From Psammoneis japonica (Eukaryota), in assembly GCA_008632985.1 (NCBI GenBank), contig QPGO01000029.1:570874-634873 (forward strand): a DNA stretch of 64,000 bases, given 5' to 3'. Made by a program: the position numbers and the translations under genes. The notes under the pieces are model-generated. The model was not told the origin of the DNA. It ran no database searches and saw only the letters and a program-made list of their open reading frames with translations. This document shows positions 19,959 through 64,000 of the stretch, piece by piece (position 1 is the first letter of the stretch; each line of letters starts with the position of its first letter).

Positions 19959-22695
19959 CTGCTATCTAGTGAGAATCCTTGTGAGAGGTAAATAGTTTCA
20001 AGATGCGTGACCGTTTAAGTTTGTAACGACCATATCAAGCGTTTGTGAATCTGATTTAACACGGGAATTGCAAGTGCTCATCGCATTTAGAATGTACCCT
20101 CTCAATGTAATAGCAGCGAGGTCAATGGCAATCGTGAAACAAGACTTGTCTCTCCCATGCGGGAAGAATCCTTTCATCAATTCATCCGCAAGTTGGGAGG
20201 CTTGATCTTGATCTCGAGATTCTCGCTTTCGTACGAAACCTGTGCGGGGTGCTGATTTGCTTGGTTCTAAGGGTGAGTTTGGGCATCGGTGATCTTGAGA
20301 CACGATGAGTTGTCCTCATAGACAGCAAATGGAGGCAAGTTGCCAGGGATGGTGGCCACTGTCTTGGAAAGCCTTCAAGTGAGTGGACAGCTTGTTGTGC
20401 AGTGATTGGGTTGCTTGAAGAACACAGCCTGGACAGGGTGACTTGAGACTGCAGCGTGGCTGGACACCCAGAAAACCACGCATCCAGCACAGAGAAAACC
20501 AAACAACCAGCTCAGAACTTGACAGACATTGGGTTGTCATGCCTGTCTTCAACGCCAAAAAGTCAGGCAACTTCCAAATCCACATGGCAATCAACTTGTT
20601 GGTCCTTGGATGGGGGTGGAATGAGGCCTTGACCTGCAGCACCCTCAAGATGATGATGCAGAGTGTGCTTGGCTGCTGGAGCATGAGACAAGGCTTGTTG
20701 AGCACATGAGAGTCATGCAATGGCACACCAACTGCAGAGCAACATTTGATGTCTTTGTCAAAGAGAGAACCATCCGCATTTGCTCCAGCAGGTGCAGGCA
20801 CTCCATTGTTTTCTTCCATCTTGGTGGCACATCAGGGGACCTTCTCTCAAGCACACAAAACTTGTTCAACCTTCCTTGAGCACACCAGTCTTGAGGGAAG
20901 GTGAGTGGAGGACCCACTCATGGCAGGTGCAAGTGTCTTGAAATGACCAACGCCAAGTTGCTGCTGGAGAGGTTGCTGCAAGCACAATGACACCAGGCTT
21001 TCAGCAAGTTTGGCACACCATCAAGCAATCTTTTGAGCTTGACAGTCCTTGTGCCTGGCAATGCAGTCAAGTCAGGGGTGCAAGGTTCCACAGCCCAGGC
21101 TTGACAATGCAACAGAGCACCCACTTTGATTTCCATGGCCTTGACCCACTCATCTGCATCTCATCAAGAGTCAACCAACCACCCAGCAGCAGATTGGTCT
21201 TGTTCCAAAGGGACATGATTTGTGTCTCCTCCATTTTTCCTGCTCTTCCATTTTGACATCTGCATCAGATGGCCAATGCAGAAGCAGCGCATGAGCCTGC
21301 AAGAAGCACCATGTGAGCTGCAGCAAGCTCATTCCTTTCTTCAATCAATGTTGCACCACAGCACTGATGAGCTCAAGAGTGGGTTTTTGCTTGCAGCCTC
21401 TGTCCTGCCCATCACCCTTTGTGGCTCTCCGACCAGAGCTCCTCCAGATTGCCCCAGACTTGGCCAGCTCCAGCTCAAGGTCTGGTGCTTCTTGTGGCCA
21501 TGTAAAAACCCACCAGAGATGAGCTTGTTCAAGAGCATGTCAGTCACTGGAGGAGGACAGCAGAGGAGGTGAGAACAGCAGAGGGTGCAGTCAGCCCATT
21601 GATTGTGCTTGATCATGAACATGACAAATGCCAAAAATGAAAGTGGGTGGCATGAGACAGAGAACAGAGTTGTTGCTTTGCACTGAAATGGTGCTGCCTG
21701 TCTTTTGTCTGCCCACCACTTTCATCTTTTCAAAAAATGCTGCAAAACATGCTGCTGCATGGTGCTGCATGGCACCCAGTGCTTCTTTGCAACCCCTTCT
21801 ACCCTCCATCAGATCCCACCCACCCCTTCTGTGCTGCAGATTCCCACAATTGTTCCAAAGCAAATGTGAAGGAGGTTGATTGACAACAAAACCAATGACA
21901 AAAACAACAGCTGAGTGCAAGAAGATGAAGAACAACACAACCATGGCCACCTCATCATCCTCTTTTTTGACATCACATGTGGTTTGTTCTTGTGGTTTGT
22001 GTGGGCTGCGGTCTTCTTGACTCTTGTCAATCTGGCAGTCTTTGTGGAGGTGGGCTCCAGCAATTTTGGTGATTTTCTTTGTGGTGTCACCTTGTCAATG
22101 CCTTTTTTTGTGCAGTGGCCATTTTTGTCTGCCTGGTGCTTGCACTGTTGCACAGCCACAATCTTGGTGGGGGCAGTGTGGTGGGTCCAGGAAACATTGC
22201 CTGTGCTGGAGATGTGGAGCAGCAATGTGGCTTGAGAATGGCATTGGCAAAGATTGTGGCAGAGGAAGTTGCCAGCCATCACTTGGAGAAAATTTACCCC
22301 ATCACTGCAGCAACAATGAAGTTTTCATCCCAGCCAATGTGCTTCCAGGCAGCAGGCAAGATGACAGAGGGGCATGTCCTGGAAGAGGCCAACTGGGTGG
22401 TCGTCCCTGCATTTTGGGTGACAATTTGGGCAAATGTTGAACCAGGGGCTTTTGTGACAGTCCAAGTGGAAGCTGCTGCTGTGCTGTCCAGTCAAGCACT
22501 GGCACCAAAGGCACTTGCCAGGCTCGCCCACCCCAAGACACCAGCAAGTGAGGCAGCAGGTGTTTTGAACCAGGAACACTTCTGCGGAGGCTTCTGGTGG
22601 AGTTTTTGAACCATGCACTCTGGACCCTCCTGGACACAGCAGCTGGGGTTGAGGGTGTTGTTGTAATGCCATCACCAACATGTGCCAAGATGGCA

Positions 22696-22798
22696 CTCCA
22701 GTTCAAAGTTTTCTTGTTGTGACATTGTTGGTGTTTGCTCTCCTTGCTCCAGTTCAAAGTTTTTCTTGTTGTGATGTTGTTGGTGTTTGCTCTCCTTT
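22696..22798. repeat. Tandem duplication, ~51 bp x2
   Basis: ctccagttcaaagttttcttgttgtga(CA/TG)ttgttggtgtttgctctcctt occurs twice. Confidence 0.85.
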
Positions 22799-25700
22799 GA
22801 AGTGATGCAATTGAGGACCCTGCAACACTGTGGCGTGCTGTTGCAACATGTGCTCCTCCTTTTTGACAAAAGCCCACTTGGTGTGCATGTTTTGGGTTTG
22901 TTCAATCTTCAACCCTGTCACAGTGGCACCAGTTGGGGCTTGTCCCCTGTCAGGAAATCAAGGTGCACCCTGTGATGGACACAAGCTGTTGTGCCTCAAT
23001 GGAAGTTGCAATCCCAGCCAGAGGAGTGACGCCAATGCAATGGAGTGCTGCTGCAACAATGGCAGCAAGATGTGTGTTCCTGGCAGTGCCTTGGAGCTGG
23101 CTGGGTCACGGCACACCGGTTGGAGGCTTCTGTCCATCACCACTCAATGGTGTCCTGGGTTCACCCTGTGCCAACTGCCAATGGAACATGCCAGACAACC
23201 AGTTGCAACTCAGCTGTGGGAGGTGTGTGGTGGAGTGCTGCTGCAACAAAAGCACACAGGCCTCTTTGTGGCTAGTTTGGCACCCAAGAACTTGGCCAGG
23301 AGGGTGGCACATTCTCTGGGCTTGAGGGGATGGAAGGGGTGGAGAGACTCAGCCAGCCTGCACCATGATGGGTCTTTGTGCCTCTTGGTTGACTGTTGTT
23401 GCAACATGACCAATGCCACATGTGCACAAGGCCTGTCAGACCAGGAAGGTCATTGTGTTGCCAAACACCTCTTTGTCCCAAGTCCAAGATGAGCATGGCT
23501 GACAAGAGCAAAACAAAAACAAGGCATCATCAATTTGCTGCCACTGTGCTGTCTTCAATGATGGAGGCTTGTTGTTGACTGTGTGCAGACAACAGAGCTG
23601 GTGTCCTCCACAAGGCAGCAGCAGGACTCCTCCCTTTCATTTTGTTTGATGCATTGTGTTGTGACAAGTGACAAGCCCCTGCAAAACATCACAGTTGCTG
23701 TGGTGTTGCACAGACTCTCTGCTGTGACACACAGAGTGCATTGAAAAGAGAACAAATCTGTCATTGACCAAAGCAGTGACAGCTGATTCATGTGAGTTTC
23801 CAAGACCATTGTTCCTTGGTCTTCCTCCTCCTTCTCATTCATCCTTGTTTGTCATCATTGGCAGTGTGATCAAGAGAGAATCAGCAGCATCACCTGCAGC
23901 AAGACAAGGACTTCAGAGACCATTGCTTCAATGAATTGTTTTCATTGCAAATGTCATTGTCAACAGGGACCTTCTCTCATGGATGCTCCACTTGCACCAG
24001 CACCATTGCTGTTGGGAATTTTCCTTTTTCTCCAACTCATTGGCAATCCTTGAAAGATCACACTTGTCAGGCAGATCATGCTCCAATGAAGTCTGGCCAC
24101 CTGACAAGCAGTTGAGTCCTTTTGTGGCCACTGGAAAGTTTTGTGCCAAGACAAATGTTGGCCTCAGTGATTTGTTGCATGACCATGTTGGGTTTTAAGA
24201 TGCCACAAAGTCCACCAGTGCAGCCTGCAAATGCAAATGATCAAGATGTGCAGTGTGCTTGCTTTCTGTGCTCAGAGCCAAGCACATGGAGGTGCATCAG
24301 GGCTCTAAAAATTGGGTGCTGTTTGCAGCAGGAGAACAGAAGAAACAAAAGGGTCCAAGAGCAGTTCTGCACAGCAAACAATGAGCTGGGCACAATGCTG
24401 TCTTTGTGGCCATTGTTTCTGGGGTTGTTGGCAGGAAAATTTTCCCATTTGTCACAGTGCCATCTTCCTCTTGTCAGGCAGAAGAAACAGGAGCAGGGGG
24501 TGCATTCCAAAGGTGCCTGGGCCATCTTGACCAAATCATCATCACAGTCATTGTTGCCATCTGTTGAGGGTGGTGCCACCCTGTGCTTGGCAAGGCAAAC
24601 AGCTGCAATTTTTTTTTTGGCTGATGCCTGTTGCAACATCAGTGGTCCTGTTCTCTTCCTTGCTCAATGGCTGCTTGATGGTTGTTCCAGAGGTGGTTGT
24701 GAAAGACTTCCCTCTTCCCCTTCTTTTTGTTCTTCCTCTCTGATCCATCTTTGTGAGTGATGTCTTGTGCCAGAGCCAAAGCCAAATTCTGTCAGGGAAT
24801 CTTCCTGTGATGATGGACTTGGCCCAGCTGAAAACAGAGCAGAGATGCAGAGCTGCTGTTTTTCACATGGTGGCACAGCAGGGCCCACACCAGAAGATTG
24901 ACAGCTTGGTGCAAGACCAAAGAATCTCAAGAATTGACTTTGGGTCATTTTCAACAACCAGACAGTCTGCCTCATCAGCAGTCTTGGGATCACAGAAATC
25001 AAATCCATCCCAATGTGAACAGACAAAAAGGCAAGTTTTGATGCACACCTTCAAACTGTGCATTTTAAATTTCCACAAAAAAATGTCTTGTGCACTGCTG
25101 GGCAACATTGCCACATGACTCATGACAGCATCAAAGAAATCATTTGGGTTTTTGCAGAATTTTTGCAAAGTGCAGGCCAGAAATGACTTGACAGCAGCAG
25201 GAGCTTCAGCCTCAATGACATCAAAGGTCAAGCAGGGTGTCAGCCTGTTTTCCAAGTGGTCATCAGCTTCTGCAAAAGCAGCACTCTCCAACCAAGGTGT
25301 GAAAGTCTCCTTTTTTGACCACAGTTTGCTGCATGACCACACAAGTGAAAGTGACAGTGGCAGCCAGGTCAACATCAAAAGCATTGTCACATTTGGTGTG
25401 CCACATTCTGGCACATGATGCAAGAAGTTCACCAGCCCAGGATCCTCTGGCAGCTTGGTTGTTGGGCTGGTGTGCCAGGTGGAACACTGGCATCTAGATC
25501 AGCAACAGCTGAGTCAACAGATTGACAGAGGGGTTGTCATGATGATCTGGAGTGCAGCAACTCATTGTGTGGAGCTCAACTTTCTTGGCAGCTTTGCAGA
25601 TGCATTTGTTGTGTCATCTCCTTTTTTGACCATTTTCATCAGTGTGGGTGGCTTCCTTCTTGATGCACTGATCTGGGCTTGGGAGGCTTGAACTCTTGAA

Positions 25701-25849
25701 GCAAGGAACAAAACACACCTGCTCTCATCACATTGCAGAGTTGCGCTCCCCTGCTTTTTTGATGTGCATGGGCCCAAAGAGCTGGGCACACATTTTCTCA
25801 TCAACATGAGTTTGTGTGCCTGTGAGCTTTCATCAAGATTGCTGTTGCA

Positions 25850-26200
25850 GCATGCCCTTCCAGCATGAGTGCTGAAAAAGTGCAATTTGAAGGGGTGTCA
25901 TCCCTGTGGTCAAAGTCACTTTTAAACTTTCATTGGCATTGTGCTGCAGAGCAACAAGCAACACACATCTCTGTGCAACCCCACAGTGGCGCAGTGCAAG
26001 GCCAAAAACCCACGGCACACATGTTGTCAGTGACGTCAGTGGCACGTGTGTTGCTTGGAGGGGATTGAGGTGCCCACAGTGCACATCTTTGTCTGCATCA
26101 GCTCCTGACTCCAGCAACAGTTGCACCTTGCAGCCACAGTTCCTTGTTTTGCAGAGAACTGCAGGCAACAGAGGTGCTCCTCCTGAGCAGGCAGCAGGAC
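25850..26200 (-). pseudogene. Decayed ankyrin-repeat gene fragment
   Basis: PLLPAVLC...KVQLLLESGADADK...NPLQA and ALQHNAN...GMTPLQIAL resemble ankyrin repeats. Confidence 0.55.
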
Positions 26201-26602
26201 AGTTCATGCTCACGTTGGCTCCAGCGAGAAGAGCACAAAACAACAAACATCTTCTGGAGGATCCACCACAAACTGCACACCTCTGAGTCAAATGACCAAA
26301 TTCCTGAGTTCCCTGTCTAAATTTACAGCCAACAAATGATGCCAAACTCCAACTTCAACAAATGATGACTGCTCTGCTTGGCTGACAATGTGAGAGTGTT
26401 GAGAATTCCCGGTGCAGTGTGTTTGCAGGTGAGACCAGCCACTTCACAGTTGACAAATGAAGTTGAACCATGGGCTGTGGTGGCAGATGCTGCTGGTGCT
26501 GCAGCCTGCATTTTGGAGCTGCTGTGGCTGTGAAGTTCAGAAGTTTTGGGAGCAGCATGCCGAAAAGGCTGAACAAGTGGAGCGTGCTCTCGTCGATCCT
26601 GT

Positions 26603-26704
26603 GCCCCAAAACCACAGTGCGATGTGACACAGCTGCAGCAGTGTGGTGCAGTGCCCCCCAAAACCACAGTGTGATGACACAGCTGCAGCAGTGTGGTGCA
26701 GTGC
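26603..26704. repeat. Tandem duplication, ~50 bp x2
   Basis: ccccaaaaccacagtg(c/t)gatg..acacagctgcagcagtgtggtgcagtgc occurs twice. Confidence 0.85.
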
Positions 26705-27331
26705 TGTGACCTGGGGCACTTGGCTACTTGGGAAAGTGGTGGCGATGAAGACTGCAGTCATCTTGCCAAGCAACAGGTCCAAAGTTGCCATTGTGCGCAC
26801 AGCACTTCACACGCGCCACTTTTTCTCGGCCGTTTCCCCAGCCTGGGGCAACTGCTGAGCCCAGGCTGCCCATCCACCCTGCCAGAACATGCATCTCAGC
26901 TCCTCCCTCTTCACACAGTGCCTGCTTCTTTTGTTCACTTTTCTTCTCTGTGTTTCTTCAGTGTGACAAAGTGAGACTCTCACGTCGTCTCGTCATCATT
27001 GTGGCGATCTCCTTCGCTCTTCCGCGCGCTGGCCTCACGTTGTGCGCGTAAATATCTGGCGCATTTTCGTTATCAGTCTACGCAGTTTCTACATACACGC
27101 TTTACATACTGCATTTCACGTACATTCTAGCGACATGATGGACAAAACGAAGGCAAAGATCGAAGCACGCAGGAGCGGCCATGGCGAGCGCTGCCGCTTG
27201 TTCTGTGCATCAAGCATCAAAGTGAATTTGAAGAGGTCTGCCGAGAAGGATCATAAGTTCAGATCCCAAATCGCAATCGATATCAAACTTTCATACGACT
27301 CGATTGTTGGCGTCAACCAGATCAAAGTGCT

Positions 27332-36199: not shown

Positions 36200-36480
36200 G
36201 GCACTATTTTGGAACTACGTTGCGATCCCGTGCAGTTCTACGTGTTTGACGAATTGGACCAAGCTTTGGATTCCACGCATCGCTTGATTGAACGCCAAAC
36301 CACTCTACTGTGGCGCCGAGATCCGACCCAATTCATTGTGAGTACCTTCCGTCAGGAGCTGTGTCATGGACCCTACGGTAGTAGCCATCGGAGCAAAGTG
36401 AGCAACATTCACCATTTGAGCAAGACGAACGCCTTGCACTTCATTGCCAACATGATGAGAGAGGAGGATGTGGGGGAACG
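36200..36480 (+). pseudogene. SMC3: Cohesin SMC3 C-terminal ATPase fragment (degraded; weaker relics may extend to ~35.4 kb)
   Basis: RCDPVQFYVFDELDQALDSTHR...TQFIVSTFRQEL...HRSKVSNIHHLSKTNALHFI matches the SMC3 Walker B/D-loop and C-terminus. The signature motif and coiled coil are missing, and there are internal deletions. Confidence 0.75.
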
Positions 36481-37264
36481 TGACGACTCTGGCGACCTCG
36501 CGAGTGTCCAGAAAGAACGGCTCGACATAAATGAAGCGCACGTCCATTACTCATTACGTCGCATAGGATGCGTCTTCTGTCTTCTGCCCAGGAAGAGGAG
36601 GAGGAGGAGGTACATGTGGAAGAAAGTGGCGCTTCACCGTAGATGATATCCTTCAAGACCAGTTTGAAGTGCGAGGTTGTTGTTTGTGATAGGGGCGACG
36701 GGAGGACTTGGCCTGGAGAGATTTGGGGTTTCGTACCGATGAGAAGTCGAGAGCCAGCAAGACTAGAGCGTGTTCTGTTGTTCATGTTGCACGAGAAAAG
36801 ACCACTCATTGTACTCTACTTGAGAGGATTCTGATTTTGTGATACTTACATCTCGTGTAGCGGAGCGCAACTTCGGAATATTCTCGGTCCCTACTGTACA
36901 ACCATTGAAGAAGTCACGAATGCCGTGAAAGCCAAAGTTGTTTCATAGTAGCATTAGTGTGGACGCTACTAGCTTGCTGTATTCATGATGTGTTGCGGTA
37001 GGTTTCGCAGCGTCCGTTTTCCGTTGAACAATTGAATCCTCGAACGGCGAATGGTCCAAAGAAATGAAAACTGGAAACGTCTACTATCGATTAACTCCCG
37101 CCATATAGGTGTTCCAGCGTTCTCAGTTGTGGAACTCGGTTTTTCTGTTTCGTTTGATTTCGCAAGCTTACATTCTTTTTGCCCCCTTCTTGTGTGGACT
37201 TTAAGGACTCCCTATCCTCAATGCATCGACCTTATCATTGCGTACATTTACCGAAAAAAAGCGA

Positions 37265-37440
37265 ACTCTCTAGCTAGATAGCTGGAGTATACAGTACAAA
37301 AGAGAGAATGTGTATTCTCTATACTATGAGCTCTTGCTGTTGTGCAATAGGTAGAAACTACTTCTACCAAGCTACTGAATTATCGTTCATCTATTTCTCG
37401 CAGCTATCGTTGAATTCAATTCGCGAAAGCCAACTAGAAC
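37265..37440. repeat. CTAG/CTAC-rich element at the left edge of block C
   Basis: ctctctagctagatagctggagtatacagtac...ggtagaaactacttctaccaagctac. Confidence 0.55.
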
Positions 37441-37579
37441 AGTGACGGTCATGTTGATTTTTACTATACTTTCCACTCGAAGCTGACTGCTGACATGTCA
37501 TATCCCCAAAATCCATACCAAGGCTCACTAACTCCTCGGCTACAATCTCCCCATCCATCTGTTATTTAACAACATTTTG

Positions 37580-40370
37580 AAAGTTGAGTCTGGTTTGTGG
37601 CACAACTTGAACGTGTGGGTGCGGGCACCTCAGCAGGTTTCTCGGAATCTTCACGGGGTTTCAAAAATGGCACAGAATCTTGAAGAACGTTCATCAATGC
37701 CTTGACTTGTCTAAAACTCTCGTTCCCCAATCTTTGGCCTTCCGCTCAATTGCAGAGTGACAGTCAGTCAGGCTTGGGTTCAGAAACAGCAAAACCTTTT
37801 CAAAAGGCAGGCTCGCCTGAGTCTTTGACAGCGTCGTCAAGCGCGTCGACATCTCCAAAACTCTCTTTCCCCAATGTCCAATGCTCAATTTCATCTTAGG
37901 GAGATGGTTGGACAAGATTGGGTTCTGAAGCAGCAAAAAATTACAGCGTTCCTGCAGAGCGCAAGCCTGAGTAAGGACTTGCGTGATGACGTCGTTCGAA
38001 ATTATGTCTGCAAGTTTCCACCAAAGCTGAAATGCTTCTGACTTTGACTCCAACAATGTGCTGTGCATTTCCAACAAGAAGGCTGACTGGATCTCCAAAA
38101 ATGTTGTGAACGCATCTTGCATCGGGAATCGGGACTGACTTGGTCTCAACCATGCTGTCGGGAGCAGTGTTGCAAAAAAGTTGCTGGATGCTGCCGTTGG
38201 AGTCGCCATTGTTGTCCTGCACAAAATGGCCAGAGACACAATGCTTGCTGGCATCTTTTTCTGGCACAATCATGGGCATGGCATTGTGCAGCAGTTCTTG
38301 GGCATGACTCAGAGACTTGTTGCCATCGTCAAAATGAGCGCAAAAGCTGGAAAGTGGCAGCGGCATTTTCGAAGGGTGCAGCACTGGGAGCAGTGTGTTG
38401 ATGATGATGTCCTGACAGCGGCTGAAGGCAGTTTTGATGCCAGAGAGCTTGGTTCTGTCAAAAAGCTTGCACAGGACATCTCATTTGATTGTGGTGATGC
38501 TGTCAGTTGCCGTGGTTGCCTTGATGGCCAAGGCGCTGCCACAGCACTTTGCCGAATCAACAAACAAGGCAGAGAGGCAGTGGGCTGGTGATGGCACCAG
38601 CATTCATGGCAGCAATGATGGCAAGGCCAAAGTTCATGATTTTCATGGCAAACAGTGAACTGAGGAGCAACCCAGATTCGAGTGAGAAAAGATTCTGTCT
38701 GCAAATTGAGGCGGCGACTTGGTGCAAAACCAGACTTGTTCCAGACCCAGGTGGTGCGTTCATGCCCGTTTTCGCACAAAAAAACGAATGTTTTGTGCTT
38801 TGTGCAACATCATCAACAATTTATTTAAATGATCACATTGATGGCTTTCAAGTGAAATGAACAGAGTAAATTCGAGCCAACAAACAGCCAAAATGGCACC
38901 ATGGCTTTCAGCGACCATGTCGGCCCACTTTTTTCAACCCCATGGAAAATTGAATGCCATGATGAAGACCGCAGCATTTGACATGGTCTGTGGCATCTGT
39001 CACAACAATGAAAATGCTTGATGCAGGCTGCAGCATGGCACAAGAAGACTCAATCTGTTGGCACCAACAATTGCGCCTCAATTCACTCACAATTTGCCTC
39101 CAAGGCACATTTCTTTTCCATTTCCATGCATGTTTCCTCAACAGCATGGATTCACACAAGTGTGTCAGTTGTTTGTGCCAATGAAACAGTGAAAAAGGGT
39201 CCAAAGTTGATGCCATTGCGTGCACTGAGCTTTGCTTCTTCTCATGCATTCGGAAACTCATCAATCAATGCATGTTTTGTTCAATCCGTTGAGACTGACT
39301 TGCATTCAAACAAATGGACAAAACATCATTTGTGTCACATTTGAGAGCACATTGTTTCATTGGAGTGACAATTGATGTTGTTTGTGAACACATGAGTGCA
39401 GTTGTAAATTGCTCATCGGAAAAAGAAGCTCTCATCTTAAGGCGCAATTTGGCGATCAACAACTTGGTCCATCCTCAGTTTCTTGTGCATGGGCACATGC
39501 ACGAGACCTTTCTGCATGTCAAAGCGACAAAGAAAAAAGACTCTGTGCAGATCTGCGCTGCATGATTCATCTTTAGAGGAGAAGAAGCTGTGACGCACTG
39601 TCTCTTGTCATTCCGAGAATGTTGAGAGGCGCTTTCATCAAATTCCCGTTGCATCCCGTGTTTTGTGCCTCTCGAGTCTACAAAGATGAGTCAGGTTCGG
39701 CTTCAATCACACCATTTCTCCACCTTGTCATTGAAGCCACTGCCACGGAGCTCAATGGTGGGACCCCCTGCTGCTGTCCACACAAAAGAATTTGCAAATG
39801 CATCGACCGCATGTCTGATGGCAACAAGATTCGAGACATTGCTGAACGAGATGGTTTGTTGTGTTCTCAGCACAATCCGATGAAGGAGAGGCAGACACAG
39901 AAAGCCAATGCTGCCTCTGAGCCCAATGCAACACGTCAAAAAGGAAAGGGAAAAAGAAAGAGGGGTGGAAAGTCAATTGAAAAACAACCCAAGAAAGCTT
40001 TTGCCGGCAAAAAGAAGTTTGCAGGAAAGAAAAAGCCGAGGCAACAACAAGAGAACACAAAACTTGCACAAGCAGCCAAGGACAAAAGTGGACAAAAATC
40101 AAGAAACTGGCGCTGAAGAAGTGGTGACAAGAAACAAAGAGAGCTGTCATTGCAGGATCTTTTTGAAGACGCCCGACTGCCATGCTCAAGAAAGATCTGC
40201 AAAGAACTGAGGCAGCTGACTGATGCCAAAATTGACCACTGAACAGCACCTCAAAACAATTCCAAAGAGCATGATCAATTGCTTGAATGGCACAGTGCGC
40301 TCACAAATTCTGCCCTCCAGCCCTGCTGAAGTGGCTGGTCGCTGTCTCCAAAGCACAAGAAGTCGAACCG
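37580..40370. other. Block C: TpA-erased but CpG only partly depleted; relic coding sequence
   Basis: 38041-38820 contains 0 TA and about 21 CG by hand count. Confidence 0.85.
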
Positions 40371-40530
40371 GTGCTCTTTGCTCTAGAGCAGCAGCTGTGG
40401 ATGCTCTGCTCTCTGCTCTAGCCCTCTTTAGAGCAGGCCTGGCAGCTGCTCTCTCTAGTTCTACCGGTGCCTGCTCTGCTCTCTCTACTAGCTACTCGAG
40501 CTACTAGCTAGCTAGAGCCTCTCTCTCCAT
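40370..40530. repeat. CTAG-family element with a conversion gradient at the right edge of block C
   Basis: Left part reads gcagcagctg/ctctgctctctgctc; right part reads ctctactagctactcgagctactagctagctagag. Confidence 0.75.
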
Positions 40531-40733
40531 TAGACAGCTTACCGTGTACGGCATGTGTTACGGTAGTCTACGCACGAGAAGGAGGAGGATAGTCGAGAGA
40601 GAACAACAGACAGGCAGACCGTGCGCAACGACTTTTTGCGTGCATTGTTTTTTTTTATTTTGCGTTGCGCTTCATTCTGTTGAAAAAGATCGTGTGAAGG
40701 GAGATGGTCGAAGTGTCAGGTAAACCATAAACC

Positions 40734-51722: not shown

Positions 51723-51929
51723 TGCGATGGCAAGTTGTGATCAGCAAGCCAACTGCTGTTCTTCAATGGGAATCGAGACTAAATCCACCGCTAGAAGAAC
51801 GAGTTTGTGTCATCGCGGTGGCCGGTGGGTCGCCGCGCGGTGGGTCCAGGTCCGTCTCTCGTCGTTTCTATCTGGGTTGGGGGTGCGGGCTGAGCTCACC
51901 TTGGTTCCGTCCATCCATCCATCCGATCC

Positions 51930-54230
51930 ATTGTGATGACAAGGACAAAGGACAACACCCCACATCATGAGATTCAATTCTTTGGAATGAAGACAGCCTT
52001 TGCATGCCTGCTTGTTCAAAAATTGTGTGCCAAACATGAGCTTTCTCTTCAAAATGATTGCGCCAATGAACCATGAATCACAGGACAAAACAACAGCACA
52101 GCAGCTTGGCTGGCAAAATGTTCAACCAGAATGAAAGCAATGCAGCAATGTCAGATCTCTCGTCCTTGAACAGTGGTTGAAAGCAAAATCAGACTGAGTC
52201 TGTCCATGCAAAACTTGCTTTCCACTTCCACAACAACCAGCCTCTCAAATCTTAAAAGATGGCTGCACAACAAGCACGACACTCCATTGAGCTGTCAGGC
52301 TGGATGTTCTGACCTGACACCAATTAAACCCAGAGCTTTGAAAATGTGGTGATGTGCCCACCTGAGTGGAATTGGCTGGCAAAGCACTTCAGAGACTTCT
52401 TCAGACAATTGTTTTTGCTGTTGGCTGGCATGCAGCAAGAAGTTGCCGCCATGACTTGCACAACTGAGATGGTTGGCGATGATGCTGCCACACCTTTCCT
52501 TGTGCAAGACAAATCATCTGAGGTGCAAGGTCAAATGCAGAAATCATGCAGGAGCACACTTTGAAGTTGAAGGGAGTCCAAGAAGACCCATCACACTGAC
52601 ATGTTGTCTCTTTTGCAGGTTGACACTGGTGCTGTTTGCAACAAATGGAGAAGAGTGCAAACAGCATTGTCTCCAAACAAGGAATGTGAAAAACATTGCT
52701 GCCTCTCAACACCTTGCAATTGTTTGCAAACAAGCCAACAACCCAAGGCAGGCATCATGATGGATTCTTGTTTGCCACACTTGAAAGCAATGAATCTTTT
52801 CTTGCTGTTTGCTGATTCTTGTTTGCTGCATTTGAAAGTGACAAATCATTTGCTGTTTGTTGCTGTGTTTGACCCATGCATGGACTGTTTGTTGTTGGCA
52901 TTTTTTGCAGAGAACAATGTGTCACATTGCACTCCACATGAGGCAACAACTTGACTTGCAACATGTGGCTGTGTGACAGCTTTGTTGCTTGTTGTTGTCT
53001 TTGACTCTCTTTCACCCCCTTGGTTGCCTTTGTTTTTGCAGATCATGTGAGACTGTTGTTGCGCTCCTTTTTGTTGTTGTGCTGCTGCTGCAATCTGTGG
53101 TGACCAGCATCATCATGCGCATTGATGAGAGTGAGAGAGCTGCATCCTGTGGGTGTGTCTTTCCTTGCAATGCAATGCATTCTCACACATGCATCCCTCC
53201 TCACAATCCAACACATTTTTTTCAACTTGCTGGCAGCAGCAGAAGGTGGCCAAGGCAGTCAGTTGCCAACAACTCCTCTGTGCACCATTTCATTGGGCAC
53301 ATGTCAAATGTCCAACAATCAAGTGGACTTCATTCACACACATGGCAGCAAGCACCTTGGGCATTTGAGGATGCTGACTCCACAAATTGCACCAACAACA
53401 ATGATGTCAGCTCTTTCCACATCTCCTCAAGCTGAGAAATGCCAGCCAACTGAGTGTGGGCACATGTTGTGCTCAAAATGTGTCCAAACTGCAGGTGCCA
53501 TGAAAATTGTTTTGTGTGTCACTGCTCACTTAAATCTTTTGCCAATCATTGCTGGAAGCAACAACACAACCTTGTCCATTCTTTCCACAGAATCAGCTTG
53601 GCTGCCAACAAAACTTGTTCAAACAAGGCACTCATCTGGAATTGGCAAAGCAACCAAGAGCTGCAGTGCACTCACAAGCCTGCCATCTTCAACTTCTTGC
53701 CTTGCCTTCACTTCAACTCCCTTTCTTTGCATTCTTCTTCCTCTGCCATCAGCAATTTGATTGGCACCTTTCTCTTGATCTTCTCCTCTGCTCTCCCATC
53801 ACCGTGTCTCTCTGCTGGAACAACTGTCAAATGATCGCAATGTCCTCTCTCTCCACAAACTCAAATCAACAAAAGCCAACTTCAGAAGTTGTGGGTGTCA
53901 GTTTCAATGACTTCAACAAATTGCTGAGGAAGACTTTGGTTGCTCAAGTGGATGTGTGCACAATGTGCTTTCATCACATTTGATGGAACCCACACTGAGT
54001 GCCCCATTCTCACCACCAAGGTTGGCCAGTTTGTCGTCAACAGGAGTTGATGCATCTCTGTCACCATCAGGAAAATCTCTGCAACACACAAGCCAGAAAT
54101 GGTTCTTAGTTCTCAACATCATCATCAAGCAATGAATGCTGGGCAACTTCTTTTTATGGGATTGCTGTCATGCTGTGGGCTGATTGTGCATTGGACAACC
54201 CTGAAAACATTGCACACTGGACAACTCTTT
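51930..54230. other. TpA-erased, CpG-depleted block D
   Basis: TA and CG rare, TG/CA saturated, ORFs Tyr-free. Confidence 0.85.
52763..52859. repeat. Tandem duplication (~50 bp) with reciprocal CA/TG differences
   Basis: gattcttgtttgcCAcacttgaaagCAaTGaatc versus gattcttgtttgcTGcatttgaaagTGaCAaatc. Confidence 0.85.
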
Positions 54231-55734: not shown

Positions 55735-57343
55735 CTTCACAGTTCCCTCCAATGGTCGCGACGCAGGTTAATGGTATGGAAAACTACTTGTAGGCGAGAC
55801 AATGACGGTGACTTCAGCCCGTGCTGTCATTGTGGGGGCGTGCCGGTCGGAAGTCGGCGGCGCAGTCGGCCGAAATTCTACTCTTTTGCCACCGTTTTCG
55901 AAAAACACAGAAAACGCAGAAAAGGGACGTCTTTTATCAAAAAATCAATCTCGAGCACGACGCATGACAGGCTGAGGTCCATCTGTCAATCTATCTTGCC
56001 ATCTTGCTTTGTTGGTTCGCTCTGCCTCTGGCACAGCACTTTGGAGGAAGTCTAGCTGCTGCTGCAGTGCTCGAGAGCAAGTGGACGGAAATGGAAGCTT
56101 CGTGCTTGGTCGTGTCAATGAGCAGCGCCACGACCTCACAACACCACCACATCTCCTGACTTTTTTTGCACCTGCCAGCTTGCTGCTCCGATCTCCAATG
56201 CTTTGTCACCATTGCTGGAACTTTCATTGCCAAACAGAGGTGCGGGTCCATTTGAGCCTCTTTGCCATTTTCTCTTCTCCCTCTCCTCTTTTTGTGTGCT
56301 CTGGTGCGTGCCTGACCTTGACAGAGAGAAGCCCCCATTTTCAGCCTTGCTCACATCACTCACTGTGCCCTCAGCTGCTTTTTCCATTCTCCTTTGTTCT
56401 TGTCATCAACTCCAAGGCATGCCTGACATCTTGTCTGTGAAAGAGTTGACTGCACTTGTTTTCTTCTTTGGATGGCTGTGCAGCAGCTTGGTTGATGCGG
56501 CACATCTTTCTCTGCGAAGAACAAAAGAAGACACCAAGTCACCTCAGTCATCCCACACCATTTCCACACATCTCTCAAAGGGAAACCTGCACCCACCTTG
56601 GGAGCATCAGGGTCATCAACTTGAGTGCCAGTGGGGAAGTTCTTGCCAGGAGACAGAGGGAAAAAGAGAGCGGGAGGACTGCAGCCCCTGCATGCAGTCT
56701 TCTGGAGACGCTCTGAGCAGAGCAACATGCAATCACACCATGGAACCCTGTTGTGGAACAGCTGCAACTGCACCATGAAGTCACACAGCCATCTCCCAGA
56801 GGCCTTGTTGGGCCATTCACAGCATCAGGTGCCTGGGGCAACTTGGGATGAAAATGCTCATCAAGCTCAAGCAAGGTTCTTGTCTTGCAAAAGACCTGAA
56901 GACAGCAAGGCCAGTTGAGGCTGGGGGGGTGCAATTCCCAGCCTCTTTTGACAAACACCCACAAGAGATGTTGTGCCATCAGCTGGCATCATCACAAGCC
57001 CAGCATGAATGGAGGTGCAAGCTGGGTCACTTTTGTGTGATCCAAAAGGTCCCCTGACAGATCTCATGGTTGCTTGGTGCCAGGCCACCAAAACATGGAA
57101 GCCAGCAAGGCTGCATTGTTGTCCAAGAAAGGGGAAGCTGTGACCAACAAGACTCTGCACAAGCAACCACAAGCTCAAAAATTGTGAGCAGCCTCTGCCA
57201 ACACCCACACTGGTGGAGCTGTGCAGCAGCCTGTCAACAACCATCAACGTGCTTGAGCTCTGGGTGGGGCCTCACAGCTCTGGACTGCAACACAAGTGTT
57301 TTTTGATCATGTGCCACATGTGCATTGCTCAAGCACATTTCCA

Positions 57344-57368
57344 TGTGTGTGTGGTGTGTGTGTGTGTG
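57344..57368. repeat. (TG)n microsatellite
   Basis: tgtgtgtgtggtgtgtgtgtgtgtg. Confidence 0.8.
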
Positions 57369-58779
57369 CTCTTTTACAAAAAATTGCACTGACTTTGTGT
57401 TTTGCAAGACAGCAAGTGCTTTGGTTTTGCTGTTTCTGGGAACAAAAACAAGCTGGTGGCTGCACTTTTCAATGTCTGCAAAATGCAGCTGAGCACACCA
57501 GAAACAATGCACTCAATGCATGAACGATCATTGTCATTCACAAATTTGCCACTTTTTGTGGTGGTGTGGTGGTTGGCGTGCCCACTCAATTCTGCACATG
57601 AGCCACGCAACAGCAGAGTTGTCATGGGGTCAACAAACTGGGCATGCCAAAAGGACAAAAAGGGGCAAATCTGTGAGCCATCACAGTCATCTGCACTTGG
57701 GGCACATTGGCATTTCTGGCTTGCCATGGTGCACTCTTCAGACTTTGAAGAATGTGCCTGGTTTGATTTTGCTCTCAGCAGTCATCAGAAATGATGGAGA
57801 ACAAAATGCTGACAGCTTCACAAAACAGGATTTGTCACAGCCCAGTGCTGCAATGCAAAATCCCACCCAGAGCTGGAAAACACACTGATGGCTGTTGACA
57901 GGCTGCTGCAGCAGCACTGCAGGCAAAGGCAACAGCTGCCAACAATTTCTGAGTTTGGCTGCTCTTGACAAGTCTGTAAAATTGCTTCTTTGTGACTGCT
58001 GTTCTTTCCCCACTCTCCCACTTCTGCCACCCAACATGGTCACAGCACTGCTGTCCAGTGGTCCAGCAGCATGCTGCAGCTTTCCTTTTCTTGCCAAAAT
58101 GCAGCCTCAGTGGCTTTCACTTCTTGGCCTGGCAGCAACAACTGCGAGGTCCACCGGGCAACCCATTTTGATCATGAGAAAGTGTGGCCCAGTTCATGCT
58201 CATTTGTGCTGGTTTTCTGACAATGCTTGCTCACCCTTGCCTTTTTGCTGAGTGTGAAATCTTTTTGCAAGAAAGTGTGCATGGAAAATGCATGCTCAGC
58301 ATGTGGTGCACAATCAAAAAACATTCATGTTGCACCCCATTTCTTTGCGGTCCCACCCACAGAGCTCAAGTGCTCTCCACAATGGAGAAACAACACACTG
58401 TGACCATTGCAGCAGGATCCATCACACCAACAGTCACAAACAAAGGGAGCAGTGATGACATCATGTGCTGTCACTGGCAGGCAAACACAGCACATTTGAG
58501 AAAACATGGGGAGAAGCAGGCGGGACACAACACACTCCAACCAAGCCCAGTTTGGTGTGTCCAGCTGTGCACAGACATGACATGTTTGTGGAAGTGCAGC
58601 ATGATGAAATTTGAACAAAATCAACTCATGAGTTCAGTGTGCATGTTAGAATGACATTGTCAAATCCACACCCATTTTCAGCCCCAGTTCCACGCCAGCC
58701 AGGGGCATGGCTTGCCGGGAGCACAAACAGAGAGGGGGGTTGTTTCACAGCATGGAGGAGACCATTCTCATGAGAAAGA

Positions 58780-58802
58780 GGAGAGAGAGAGAGAGAGAGA
58801 GA
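58780..58802. repeat. (GA)n microsatellite
   Basis: gagagagagagagagagagaga. Confidence 0.85.
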
Positions 58803-61800
58803 CAACACCACATGGGTGCTGGAGTGATGAGAGTCAGAAAGAGCAGAGCAGACAAAACCCTCCTCCTCCCCAGTCACACAGCAAGCAGCAGATGTTGCAC
58901 CCAAGAAACAGGAAACCCAAAGAAGCCACCGGGGCAACAATTTTGCAACAAAGCTGGTTGGTGCTGCAGTGGACAAAGGCTGCAACTCCTGACATGCTGG
59001 CTGTCAAGGAAACAATGTGGACAGGTTTGGTCAGGCCTGCCTCCTGGTGGGTGGGATTGTTTGGCATCTGCATGTCCTTCAGGAAGTGCTGCACCGGTGC
59101 CCTCTGCTCTCTGGATGCTCTGCAGTGGCAGAGCCCTGTGGCTGGAGCAAAGAGTGGCATCCTCTCATTGCTTGGCACTCAGAGTCTGCTTCAGAGGGCT
59201 GAAAGCTCATGTGTGTGAGTGATTGAGCACATGGGGTTTTAACACGCTGTGTGCGATGGACAAAATTTTGCTGTGCATGCACACTGAACTTGTTTTGGCT
59301 GACATCCACCCACATTCCCAGCCACCACTCTAGTGAGACACTGCAGACCCTGCAAATGTTTTTCCTTCTAGCACATTTTGAGTTGCACACATTGAAATTT
59401 TAATCAGAAGGATCTTGACAGAGCACTCAATTAAAAAAGAACTGGCTTCAACTCTGTCTTTGGCAAATGCCATGTTCCATCACTCCACGCCAGCTCTTTG
59501 ATCACATTGACATGCCAACAAAACAATTTCTTTGTCCTCACAGAAACATGCTCCTGCCTGTGGCTCCTCATCCCAGTGTCAACCAGATTTGTGTGGCTTT
59601 GTGACAGTTCCAGCAAAGTCTCTTTTCCAGCATTTCAAAAGATTGTGAGGGCAACAGGACCAGCAGCAATCACACAGATCAGTCATTCCAGGGGTTTTTG
59701 TGAGACAAGTTCTCATGGTGTGTTTGTTGCATTTTGTTCATTTTCCACCACCAGCTTGACTTGTCTGTTTTTGGGAGGAACAAACAAACATCAGCCCCGC
59801 TGCAGTGTCCTGGGCTCATTCTTGTTCCTGTGGAGCTTGGCATGATTTTTGAATTGTTCTGACATGCACTCGGCTTTTTTGTTGTCATTCAGGACCAACT
59901 CCAGTGGCATTTTGAAGCAATCTGCATCATCAGTGCATGCAATGGAATGGCTGGCAAGCTTTTCCAAAGGTCTGACAGCAAATGTCTGGACTCTTTCTTG
60001 ATGTTTGCCACTCTTGTTTGGTCAGCTGCATCAAAATTCAAACACAAGCCTCTGCTCCAGCACAGCAAGTGTTGCACAAGTGTGTTGAATGGTTTGTCAT
60101 TGAGCCATTCACACAGCCCCACACAAACTGATGCAACATTTCAATGCTTTGGCATGAAAAGACTTCATCATGTCTTGATGACATGGTTGCATCAATGGCA
60201 ACATCTTCCTCATTGTCAACAAATTTTCAAAAACAATGTTGATCACACGTGCAAATCTGGAACCTCGCTGACATCCCCAGAATCACGCAGAGCATGGCAC
60301 AACAAGAGAATCTTGCTTTTGGGAGTGATTGCATGGGGAGTGACAGGGGCAATTGGCGGAGCACCTGTCAAGTAGTGTCCTCCTCATCACTCTGTGCAGA
60401 AGCACAACATCCCCCTGCTCTGCTTCAAGCAGTTGCCAATGTTGTTGAGAAAGTCAGCTGCCATGTTGAGAGACTGGAGCATGATGATGGAGAATTTCAA
60501 AATGCTGTTTTTTTCTGGGGGGAGTATCTCAGCAACAAAAAGGTCTCAAAAGCAGTGTTGGCATTGAATCCCTGAGGACACAGTCCATCAGCAGATGCAA
60601 ATTGAGTGAGGTTTTGTTGAATGAGCACCTGTGCAACTGCTGCATTGAGAAATGGCCCCTGCAACTTGGTGAAATGAGTCATCTCATTGCTGCTGCTGCT
60701 TGTTCACAACTGGATTTAAGAGTGGACTTAAGATTGAGAATCAAACTTGAGTCAATGTTTGACCTGCACCCTGTGCTGAGCCCCCCCCCCTTGAACAACA
60801 TCTTCAATTGCCATCTTGCTGCCACTGCTGTGGACCAAGTGTGTGCTTGATGCCATCCTGAAGTGACTCAAAGTCATTCACACAAAATCCATCTTTCTCA
60901 TGAACAAGAAAAGAAGCTCTGAATCTCTTCAGCACACTGCTGTTGCACCCTGCATGGCTCTGCCAATCACCTCAGTGCTCTCACCACCATTCACACCTGC
61001 AACTGTGGCTTTTTCATCATTGTGAGAAAGCAAAAAAAAAACAGAAATGACAGCAGCATGTGGCAGCAGCAAAAGTCATGTTGGTTGCAAGCAACCATCA
61101 ACAATTGTCAATGGCACAAGTGCAGTTGAAAAAACATCAATGACAAAACAATGCAGGCCCCAATGCAGCCACAGCTGCATGAGGTGGCCACCTGAGCTTT
61201 GCTGACTTCATCATGGTGCATGACCATGATTGGCCAAAAGTGGTGGGCAGGGGAAAACATGCTCAATGCACTCATCATGCCAACCGCCCACATTGAAGCT
61301 CTTTGCTCAGTTTAAACAAAGATCTTGTTTCCAAATGGCAGATTTTGTCACATGCTCAAATTGTGACATTTGACAGTTTTGTTGTGTTCTTTGCTCTCTT
61401 GTTCAAGGTTTCTGTGGCCTGTGTGTGCTGGCATGGCCTGGGAGAGATTTGATTCAGTTTGGTTTTCATTTTGGTGCACATGACACATCTGTTCATTGGA
61501 GTTCTGCAGTCATGCCAAAATTTGGCATGCTTGATGAGCTCCATTTCTTCTCCTGGGCTCTGTTGTTTGCTCTGTTTCAGGGGTTTCAATGGGTGGCACA
61601 TGCCCTGAGAAGCAAGTTTGATTGAGTTTGCTTCTCACCCATTTGTCAGAGCCTTGTTGTCAATGTCACCCATCCAATGCTTGAGCTCTGTTTCTTCTCC
61701 TTGGGCCAAGCTGTTTGTTTTTCTTGTGTTCAAGGTTCTTGTGGCACACCCCAAGAAGCAACTTTCATTGAACCCCCACTTGTTCAATTCTGGCACATGT

Positions 61801-63654
61801 GATTTGTGCCTGTTTGTTTGAGTCTTGCAATCAATGCCACTCATTTTAAACTCCAGCACTTGAGTTCTCTTTCTTTTCTTTTGCATTTGGCTTCACCACA
61901 GCCTTCACTTTTCCCTTCAGCTATTGTCCAGGCCAAAAGCTGTGGAGAGTTTTTTTTTGCCTCATCACTGGAAATTGGGGCAAGGGAGTGGCGCCACTTG
62001 AGGGCAAAACAATTTGAGCTGGAACTGACATCACAGCCAACTGCTTCAGTGTTGACTCACAGTTTTTTCATGTGCTTCTGCTTCAGTGAGTTGCTGAAGG
62101 ATTGCAGCCCATCATGGCATGTCAGCCATTGCATGTTTTCTTGTTTCTTGGCAACTGCATTTTGCTTTTCTGAAACTGCTCACTTGTTGTTGAGTGCAAC
62201 AAAGTTGCCCTTTGTTGATGCAGCAATTTTTTGTGCAGTTGCATCTTTTCTTGTGCATCTTGTCACTCATGATGCCCTTCTCCATTGCACTCATTTGGAG
62301 CTGAAAATCTGGCTTTGAGATGGTGCTCTGCATGCTCTCTCCATCATTGAAACCCTTTTGTCTGCCTGGTTGTCATTGCAGTGCTTTGACTTCATGTGTT
62401 GCAAAAAGGGCTCCCTGTGCCAATCTGTTGTGAAATGTTTGCAGCTGTGTCAGGAGGATGCTGGTCCCCTCTTGATGACCTGTCAGCCAAGCTGTTTTGG
62501 AAAATCAAAAGACTTTGGAATCTGTTTGTCAAGCATGCACTGAGCATGCAATTGAAACAAAAAAGATTTGAGTGTCCACCATGGCAACTTGTTGGCTAAA
62601 TCTGCAACAGAATGGCTGCTGCCATGCTCCTGCCAAACATGGCACCAGAAGTTCTTGTGACAAGAGCTTTGCTTTGCAGAGCCAGAAGAGATGTCAAGCA
62701 TGACAAACACAAGCTCTGTCATGTTCATGCATTGCCCCCACTGGTCAAATTCTCCTGCTCCTTTGTGCAAGTTCTGAAAGCATCTTTCTAAATCTGGCTG
62801 CACTGACTGAAAGGACTGAGAGTTCAAGAAATGTGCTGTTGTCCTCTAAAAGTTCATTCAACAATGACCCAGCATTTTTCAATGCCTTTTCTTCAAGAGT
62901 GCATGCAACTGCTTGGCAAATGATGCTCTTCCTCTGCACACCCCTGCTCTCAATCACTTTTTGTGGCCAACAAGATGACAAAATGGGCATGTCCAACCAC
63001 TGCTGGAACTTTGAGGCAAGAGGCAGTTTTCACAGGACAGACAATGTTGCAGTGAAGGACACACTGATGATTGTCAATGATGTGGTGAATTTGCATTTCT
63101 GGCTCAGGTTGAGTTGTGGGTCTTGTGATCACTGTTTGGCTTCTGCACCCAGCCAACATGGCAGTGGTGGTCAATGGCATCAGGAATGTGTTTGCAAGCC
63201 ATGTGGTGAGGTTGGGGTTGGTGAGACCAAACGTGTGCCAGTCCTCAAGCCTTGACACTCCAACACAGCAGCCAAAAAGGCACAGCACAAAACTCAAAGA
63301 AGCAGCATCATTCAAAGGAAAGGCTGCCTGGGAAGTCATCGGGGAATCCAAAGGCACAGGCTGGAAAGTCATCAGGAACCCAAAGGGGCAACTCATGTTG
63401 GCAGATTGTGGCAAACAAGCTGGCTGAACAAGGGCAAAGAAACAGTCTCTGGATGGCTTTGCTGTGAGAAAGCTGTCAAGGGTCCTCTGCTGAAAGAGGG
63501 TGCAGCACGGTTGCAATGGGCTGGAACAACATGGGCAAGGATGCAGCTGAGTGTGGAAGCACAAGAGGCTCAAATGCTGAGTCAGCTCATCAGGCAGATG
63601 GTTGCACAGCACCACAAGGAAAATTGGTGAGTGTGTCAGAAGAAAGTTTGGCCC

Positions 63655-63737
63655 AGAGATGCATGCACTGGCATCTCTGAGGCAGGAGAGCATGCCAAGA
63701 GATGCACGGACTGGCATCTCTGAGGCAGGAGAGCATG
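63655..63737. repeat. Tandem duplication, ~43 bp x2
   Basis: agagatgca(tgc/cgg)actggcatctctgaggcaggagagcatg occurs twice. Confidence 0.85.
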
Positions 63738-64000
63738 TCAAAAGAGCTGGAGCATCTGTTGGGAGATGCCACATCAGAGAAGGACAAGGCAACCTGGGGC
63801 AAGCATCAATGCAGTCACCATGTGAAACAGAGTGTGATCCACAAGACACAGAAGGTGAAAGGCATTTAACACAATTGTGGGACAGTGCACAAATGCTGTC
63901 CACCACAAGGTTGAAGGAGTGACAGAGTTGCAAAGGAGTGGGATGTGATGACAGCACTGTTGGAAATTCTCATGCAGATCTTGTTTGGTGCAAATGAGAA

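What the first reader, a model, noticed from the sequence alone, without database searches (positions are those of the whole stretch)
38041..38820. TA loss is uncoupled from, and can exceed, CpG loss
Seen: 0 TA but about 21 CG in 780 bp of block C, while blocks B and E have lost both. Inference: TA conversion is faster than or independent of CpG deamination, and blocks differ in age or methylation, giving a relative clock.
Basis: partly seen in the sequence, partly recalled or inferred. Interest (0 to 1): 0.72.

Follow-up and report, generated by a model that had tools for sequence, protein, structure and literature searches.

The report
TA erasure outruns CpG decay
In this diatom, silenced repeat DNA loses its TA steps (to TG or CA) roughly ten times faster than it loses CG steps, so a stretch with no TA but some CG left is a half-way stage of a little-known DNA-rewriting process, and the remaining CG gives a rough age.

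Summary
Observation confirmed: 38041-38820 has 0 TA and 21 CG. It is not CG-spared: it is a dead copy of a diatom host gene family that has lost all 22-25 TA sites and about 70% of the CG sites of intact copies. Three repeat families with intact and converted copies show TA changing to TG/CA by pure A:T>G:C transitions on both strands, site by site, preferring 5'-TAYY. In lightly diverged copies TA loss runs about 8-10 times faster than CG loss (range 3-60). Among 777 sampled 500-bp windows, 49 lost TA but kept CG, and none of 243 CG-depleted windows kept TA. CG retention falls with transversion distance (rho -0.81), so CG works as a slow clock while TA saturates early. 'Faster' and 'clock' are supported. 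'Independent' holds for chemistry, not location: both act in the same domains, about half the sampled genome. The process works like the TpA hypermutation measured in Bigelowiella natans (bioRxiv 2026), which does not address CpG. The enzyme is unidentified; a DNA adenine deaminase is most likely. The scan noted this process before, many times, elsewhere in this genome.

The parts
38041..38820 (.). The finding: 0 TA, 21 CG; 5' part of a dead host-gene copy, a short spacer and the left end of a MITE
37568..40383 (.). Block C, a TA-erased domain (TA o/e 0.06, CG o/e 0.50); intermediate stage
   Evidence: two-state segmentation
37569..38650 (-). Frame-broken copy of a host multigene family (about 380-430 aa, N-terminal hydrophobic stretch, no Pfam or Atlas match); at least 25 copies in the genome, 18 with TA intact
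37200..37600 (.). Edge gradient inside the same homologous sequence: TA partly converted here and almost fully from 37600; CG loss rises from about 15-30% to about 70% towards 38200-38700
   Evidence: pairwise against L003, L026, L014
38733..39520 (+). Left 790 bp of a about 911-bp MITE (terminal inverted repeat, 4-bp target duplication in full copies); older subfamily, TA erased, CG about half lost
39521..40383 (.). Rest of block C, TA-erased; no second copy among the 40 candidates scored
15191..17505 (.). Block A, same intermediate state (TA 0.03, CG 0.40)
20320..27048 (.). Block B, late state (TA 0.03, CG 0.11), CG higher at its right edge
51793..54106 (.). Block D, late state (TA 0.02, CG 0.19 including edges)
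56054..64000 (.). Block E, late state (TA 0.04, CG 0.09), CG higher at its left edge

Best explanation
Repeat-rich (presumably silenced) domains of this diatom genome undergo two separate transition processes. (1) A fast, sequence-specific one turns TpA into TpG or CpA in chromosomal DNA, one site at a time on either strand, fastest at 5'-TAYY, spilling weakly onto other A-pyrimidine steps. (2) A slower one turns CpG into TpG/CpA, most simply 5-methylcytosine deamination. Both are confined to the same domains and fade together at edges, but (1) runs about 8-10 times faster, so any sequence entering a domain passes from intact, to TA-erased/CG-kept, to both lost. Block C is at the middle-to-late stage and B, D, E at the late stage. 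Shown: direction, spectrum, context, order, nesting, CG-age correlation. Inferred: methylation as the cause of CG loss (about 85%); chromatin-guided enzymatic deamination of DNA adenine to hypoxanthine as the cause of TA loss (about 55%), with an ADAT2/TadA-fold enzyme as the leading but unproven candidate; a defence role.
For: Gene family: in five TA-only copies A>G is 0.41 after T against 0.01-0.03 after A, C, G, and A>C/A>T at TA is at most 0.01. Against the nearest intact copy, TA>TG/CA is 115 of 137 and CG>TG/CA 47 of 286; converted copies are scattered over the masked tree and disagree in TG versus CA in 132 of 382 pair-sites. MITE, 32 copies: 26 near-intact (TA lost 33/1668, CG 3/954), most inside TA-free flanks; 6 converted (287/346 versus 46/220); one has 48/61 TA, 1/39 CG and 0/595 transversions. 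Copia copies: 144-164 of about 188 TA versus 55-66 of 303 CG; paired LTRs differ mostly at these steps. Genome sample is L-shaped. Context rates TAC 1.64, TAT 1.28, TAG 0.62, TAA 0.46; TACC 2.4 versus TAAA 0.2; surviving TA are YTAR, RTAY is near zero. No strand runs in 15 tests; 187 same-strand versus 203 opposite-strand with nearby lost CG. C5 DNA methylase genes are present. The laboratory TadA editor ABE7.10 favours YAY and disfavours AAA (PMC10188366, passages). No MPG-type glycosylase match (control rang in 4 of 14).
Against: No methylation or damage data. A>G on one strand equals T>C on the other, so a thymine or methyl-adenine route cannot be excluded from sequence. Only ordinary-looking deaminases were found, none with a chromatin-reading domain in the stretches read. 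The hazard ratio is not constant (3-60), and the heterogeneity test ignores site-rate variation and shared ancestry. One Copia copy keeps most TA (o/e 0.53) yet lost about 10% of CG since its split from a sister. Whether TA loss is continuous or comes in bursts is unresolved. Searches score only 40 candidates and favour look-alikes of the query.
Confidence: 0.8

Rival explanations
1. TA loss comes from a base modification rather than direct deamination: an oxidised thymine (5hmU/5fU) at RTA read as C, or N6-methyladenine at TpA that later deaminates.
For: Same symmetric TA>TG/CA outcome; a palindromic mark would explain domain confinement and edges. Sequence alone cannot say which strand is hit.
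Against: No match to Tet_JBP or MT-A70 in the genome, but both controls were silent, so this is weak. The weak spill-over at other A-pyrimidine steps (RAY 32/2612 versus AAR/GAR 6/2756) fits one enzyme with relaxed 5' preference.
Confidence: 0.25
2. TA loss is a by-product of methyl-CpG repair: error-prone patch synthesis (polymerase-eta-like WA>WG, recalled) around T:G mismatches.
For: Strict nesting of CG loss inside TA-erased domains and parallel edge gradients; in MITE and gene copies TA near a lost CG was converted a little more often (104/111 versus 171/201; 46/47 versus 75/90, confounded by copy age).
Against: AA is not hit (0.02 versus 0.41) and there are almost no transversions; no strand runs and no same-strand coupling; the Copia trend is opposite (168/215 versus 251/292); one MITE has 48/61 TA converted with 1/39 CG lost; two metagenomic Copia relatives show CG decay with TA normal.
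Confidence: 0.1
3. Blocks differ in CG mainly because they differ in methylation level, not age; CG content is then no clock.
For: CG o/e is 0.52 in the outer 250 bp of domains against about 0.3 deeper; ratios differ among copies of similar divergence; the extreme MITE sits in normal flanks.
Against: CG kept falls with transversions (rho -0.81) and indels (rho -0.81) over 21 Copia alignments, -0.71 without the three close copies (two rows cover the same stretch), and over the 10 closest gene and MITE copies (rho 0.94 for loss). Distance to the reference includes pre-insertion divergence.
Confidence: 0.2
4. Editing at the RNA or cDNA stage of mobile elements, later fixed by reverse transcription.
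For: Two ADAT1/ADAR-type editase genes exist; many converted stretches are retrotransposons.
Against: TG and CA both arise in every converted copy; host genes and a DNA MITE are hit; the two LTRs of one element disagree (TG|CA 10, 9 and 6 sites in three pairs), so change followed insertion.
Confidence: 0.02
5. Reverse direction, inherited TA-poor composition, or assembly artefact.
For: None found.
Against: TA-rich copies are the majority and most keep long frames, converted ones are polyphyletic and discordant; TA-rich MITEs with target duplications sit in TA-free flanks; public contigs match.
Confidence: 0.01

Closest known systems
TpA hypermutation of integrated NCLDV and virophage DNA in Bigelowiella natans (Mettrop et al., bioRxiv 10.64898/2026.01.13.699255; read: abstract, introduction, results, discussion; supplements closed)
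   Same: A:T>G:C transitions restricted to TpA giving TpG/CpA; local domains; TpA-poor sequences enriched for transposon domains; ADAT2 proposed, unproven.
   Different: Different supergroup branch (diatom versus chlorarachniophyte). There 124 clusters and two regions with TpA still plentiful; here about 55% of sampled bases are near-fully erased, including host gene copies. The paper's main text has no occurrence of 'CpG', 'diatom' or 'trinucleotide', so the order against CpG decay, the TAYY preference and the lack of strand runs are not covered. There the rate was measured directly; here it is read from copies.
5-methyl-CpG decay in diatom transposons (DNMT5a-dependent methylation of TEs in Phaeodactylum tricornutum, PMC9998398; abstract and passages read)
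   Same: CG>TG/CA transitions confined to repeat domains, accumulating with age.
   Different: Accounts only for the slower half; methylation was not measured here and a DNMT5 gene was not specifically identified.
Repeat-induced point mutation (RIP) of ascomycetes (search-listing abstracts; details recalled)
   Same: Dinucleotide-specific transitions that ruin repeats and leak into neighbours.
   Different: RIP is C>T and creates TpA; this destroys TpA by A>G. Near-identical multicopy MITEs and gene copies stay intact, so repetition alone is not the trigger.
TadA-derived adenine base editor ABE7.10 (PMC10188366, passages)
   Same: A>G in DNA, YAY favoured, AAA disfavoured.
   Different: Engineered, not natural. 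Here CA is barely hit, and TACG (the tRNA motif of TadA, recalled) is not the hottest context (1.1 versus TACC 2.4).

Membership tests
Bigelowiella-type TpA hypermutation | Changes are almost only A:T>G:C transitions | tested here: met
   A>G 0.41, A>C 0.00, A>T 0.01 at TA
Bigelowiella-type TpA hypermutation | Restricted to TpA, both strands | tested here: met
   0.41 versus 0.01-0.03 in other 5' contexts; TG and CA both frequent; weak spill-over at RAY
Bigelowiella-type TpA hypermutation | Confined to local domains of foreign or mobile DNA | tested here: met
   Domains hold Copia elements and MITEs but also host gene copies; viral origin not shown for any
Bigelowiella-type TpA hypermutation | About 1000-fold raised rate per generation, active in only some lines | not testable with these tools
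   Needs mutation-accumulation lines; MITE copies are bimodal (0-9% or 79-89%) but age structure could explain it
Bigelowiella-type TpA hypermutation | Same enzyme (ADAT2 proposed) | tested here: inconclusive
   An ADAT2-like and a TadA-like gene exist; such genes are general tRNA-editing genes
Methyl-CpG decay | CG>TG/CA transitions in repeats that grow with age | tested here: met
Methyl-CpG decay | 5mC present at these CG | not testable with these tools
   C5 methylase genes present; no methylome
Fungal RIP | C>T at CpA that raises TpA | tested here: not met
   C>T at CA 0.01; TpA falls to o/e 0.02-0.06
Fungal RIP | Triggered by duplication itself | tested here: not met
   26 of 32 MITE copies and 18 of 25 gene copies are near-intact despite high identity; very recent copies might not yet have met a trigger
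APOBEC-like processive single-strand deamination | Strand-coordinated runs | tested here: not met
   within-copy concordance 0.46-0.56 versus cross-copy 0.47-0.58, all 15 p at least 0.09; many superimposed tracts could blur runs in saturated copies

The most novel reading that the evidence does not exclude
A natural chromatin-guided DNA adenine deaminase, shared by stramenopiles and rhizarians, acts as a genome defence that needs no cytosine methylation, strikes silenced DNA before CpG decay does, and has rewritten about half of this diatom genome; its TAYY preference would be the fingerprint of the first natural adenine base editor of chromosomal DNA.
Probability: 0.3. Interest if true: 0.9.

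Novelty: new variant of a known kind. Interest (0 to 1): 0.66.

Why it matters
It turns a compositional oddity into a measured sequence of events. A TpA mutator about ten times faster than CpG decay means repeats in this genome are inactivated mainly by A>G, not by the textbook methyl-C route. It gives a two-hand clock for insertions (TA for the very young, CG for the old) and warns that identity-based repeat dating and annotation here are badly inflated. With the Bigelowiella report it suggests an under-described mutational defence in microalgae, and diatoms have the genetics to find the enzyme. A natural DNA adenine editor would also interest the base-editing field.

Tried and rejected
Pfam found no family for block C frames or the intact gene-family protein; the Atlas gave no usable hit. 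Deaminase searches gave 9, 4 and 5 matches, all resembling dCMP deaminase, TadA, ADAT2, guanine-deaminase-like, RibD and ADAT1-type genes (labels partly recalled). Tet_JBP and MT-A70 searches were blank with silent controls, so uninformative. Endonuclease V was not searched. Spread to other organisms: 0 of 13 metagenomic Copia relatives show TA erasure (lowest o/e 0.48), but exact peptide patterns disfavour converted copies. No RNA holder was listed. I first read the bimodal MITE copies as proof of bursts and dropped it: in young copies transversions outnumber other transitions 25 to 11, as assembly errors would, so their age is unreliable and a constant ratio near 10 fits. I first read Copia copy L100 as 'TA intact, CG lost' and dropped it: 67 further sites with TA-like hot flanks are converted in all four copies. 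The TA-erased, methylase-rich contigs C297/C301 were not examined beyond the loci in hand. Literature searches that found nothing on this in diatoms; the library lacks most subscription papers. Rows dropped: L013 (near-identical to L012) from the gene family; L100 (reference), L109, L115 (LTRs) and L114 (apparent duplicate of L112); one requested stretch did not exist; 3 of 780 windows held N.

Full report
Observation. The stretch 38041-38820 holds 0 TA and 21 CG, inside a TA-free gap from 38003 to 38822. About 29.5 TA are expected at the window's background rate (P about 2e-13). The window has five TA-erased blocks: TA/CG o/e is 0.04/0.40 (A), 0.03/0.08 (B), 0.06/0.47 (C), 0.02/0.09 (D) and 0.04/0.10 (E), against 0.59/0.99 elsewhere, with TG/CA raised to 1.7-1.9. 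Contigs of one public DNA run, which may be the source sample, match most of the stretch with 0-3 other letters. The genome is 91 Mb in 597 contigs. The three homologues of a neighbouring kinase that carry an organism name are from diatoms, so I treat it as a diatom.

What the stretch is. It is the 5' part of a frame-broken copy of a host multigene family (minus strand, about 37569-38650), followed by the left end of a 911-bp MITE with terminal inverted repeats and 4-bp target duplications (from 38733). Both have other copies in the genome, which allows before-and-after comparison. Against four intact gene copies, 0 of 22-25 TA sites and only 9-10 of 36-40 CG sites survive in 38041-38676. So block C is not CG-spared; it is at a middle-to-late stage.

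Direction and spectrum. Of 25 gene copies aligned (L013 dropped as near-identical to L012), 18 keep TA and CG, 5 have lost TA and kept CG, and 2, including the window's, have lost both. In the five, A>G is 0.41 per strand after T and 0.01-0.03 after other bases, with A>C and A>T at most 0.01; C>T at CG is 0.08 against 0.03 in intact copies. With TA and CG columns masked, converted copies fall at separate places on the tree, four of the five next to or nearest an intact copy, and they disagree on TG versus CA in 132 of 382 pair-sites. TA is therefore ancestral and conversion happened repeatedly. The two LTRs of single elements differ mostly at these steps (TG|CA at 10, 9 and 6 sites in three pairs), so the change follows insertion and occurs in chromosomal DNA.

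Order and speed. Gene family, nearest intact copy: TA lost 115 of 137, CG 47 of 286. MITE, 32 copies: 26 near-intact (TA 33/1668, CG 3/954), most sitting in TA-free flanks, and 6 converted (287/346 and 46/220), with none between 9% and 79%; one copy shows 48/61 TA, 1/39 CG and 0/595 transversions. Copia: 144-164 of 187-189 TA and 55-66 of 302-303 CG against the least converted copy. A common hazard ratio over 15 copies is 8.5, but it is not constant (3.0 to 59.5; G=45.9, df 14, p=3e-5). That test ignores site-rate variation and shared ancestry. The low end is a Copia copy that keeps TA o/e 0.53 yet lost about 10% of CG since its split from a sister; 67 extra sites with hot TA-like flanks suggest it too is partly converted.

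Genome-wide test. I took 39 stretches of 10 kb at round coordinates of large contigs (not a strictly random sample). Of 777 windows of 500 bp, 394 have TA o/e under 0.2, and 49 of these keep CG at 0.7 or more; all 243 windows with CG under 0.3 have TA under 0.2; 4 windows with CG under 0.5 and TA at least 0.3 straddle domain edges. TA-erased domains cover 216,148 of 390,000 bases. The nesting also shows that the two losses share their location. CG o/e is 0.52 in the outer 250 bp of domains and about 0.3 deeper, and at the left edge of block C both fade, TA staying saturated further out.

Clock. Over 21 Copia alignments (two cover the same stretch), the share of CG kept falls with transversion distance (rho -0.81) and indel load (rho -0.81), and -0.71 without the three close copies, while TA is near zero in all distant copies. 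For the 10 closest gene and MITE copies CG loss rises with transversions (rho 0.94; 0.74 for all 16). Distance includes pre-insertion divergence, so the clock is relative and rough. Methylation differences probably add noise and were not testable.

Mechanism. Fitted rates over 1053 site-copy observations are TAC 1.64, TAT 1.28, TAG 0.62, TAA 0.46, and with the next base TACC 2.4, TACT 2.0, TATC 1.9, TAAA 0.2. Surviving TA in old domains are TTAA, CTAA/TTAG and CTAG, while GTAC, ATAC/GTAT and ATAT are near zero. A weak spill-over of A>G at AAY/GAY (32/2612) over AAR/GAR (6/2756) has the same 3' preference. Neighbouring conversions show no strand runs in 15 tests, and no strand link to nearby lost CG (187 same, 203 opposite). 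This fits a distributive, sequence-reading enzyme and not a repair patch around methyl-CpG. Deamination of adenine is the simplest chemistry; the engineered TadA editor ABE7.10 favours YAY and disfavours AAA (PMC10188366, passages). A thymine or methyl-adenine route gives the same footprint and stays open. The genome has ordinary-looking TadA-like, ADAT2-like and two ADAT1-type genes, many C5 methylase matches and no MPG match. None of this identifies the enzyme. Two of 13 metagenomic Copia relatives show CG decay with normal TA (o/e 0.61/0.39 and 0.66/0.24), and none shows TA erasure, though the search disfavours converted copies.

Comparison with what is known. Mettrop et al. (bioRxiv 10.64898/2026.01.13.699255; abstract to conclusion read, supplements closed) measured TpA>TpG/CpA mutation about 1000 times above background in two virus-derived regions of Bigelowiella natans and proposed ADAT2. 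The diatom process works like it and meets its spectrum and context features; rate and enzyme could not be tested. Its main text has no occurrence of CpG, diatom or trinucleotide. CG loss fits known DNMT5a-dependent transposon methylation in Phaeodactylum (PMC9998398, abstract and passages). RIP membership fails on polarity and trigger. Seven other searches found no description in diatoms; the library is incomplete. Earlier scan notes report the same process, TA outrunning CpG and the TAY motif elsewhere in this genome; they gave me the paper, and I tested the claims independently.

Verdict. Real, and a new variant of a recently described kind. TA loss is faster, comes first and looks chemically separate from CpG decay, but shares its domains. 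CG content serves as a rough relative clock. Interest 0.66.

Noticed in passing
L088, L089, L090, L094 (G000:C301:34166-37723; C297:3633-7190 and 35710-40930): Several C5 DNA-methylase genes clustered on two contigs in TA-erased, CG-kept DNA; possibly recently converted foreign DNA (giant virus or methylase-carrying element), which would parallel the Bigelowiella case.
   Followed up: partly
L125-L178; window 38733-39520: A young, about 911-bp MITE family with terminal inverted repeats and 4-bp target duplications of varied sequence; most near-identical copies lie inside TA-free domains, suggesting insertion bias or purging elsewhere.
   Followed up: partly
L003-L030; window 37569-38650: Host multigene family of at least 25 copies, about 380-430 aa with an N-terminal hydrophobic stretch and no Pfam or Atlas match, very often abutting TA-erased domains and clustered on a few contigs (C8, C17, C43).
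   Followed up: partly
old domains in L031-L069: Residual CG in the oldest domains is enriched in GCGC, CCGC/GCGG and ACGT and poor in TCGA; GC steps rise to o/e 1.27 and AT falls to 0.80, as secondary A>G would produce.
   Followed up: partly
L079 (G000:C40) and L080/L081 (G000:C79): Two separate adenosine-editase (PF02137) genes with HAE motifs; only one ADAT1 would be needed for tRNA editing (recalled).
   Followed up: no
L074:313-1785 (minus): A deaminase domain and a 2-oxoglutarate/Fe-oxygenase-like domain (label recalled from the sequence) lie in one 491-codon open frame.
   Followed up: no
L049:3227-4591 (minus): An alpha/beta-hydrolase host gene with 0 tyrosines in 455 aa inside a TA-erased, CG-kept domain: host genes are also caught.
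   Followed up: no
window 35794-36770: Contigs of both laid runs join across a 975-bp skip, suggesting an insertion/deletion allele next to block C.
   Followed up: no
L097 (G000:C28:649004-652429): A broken C5 methylase copy lies in fully TA- and CG-erased DNA.
   Followed up: no
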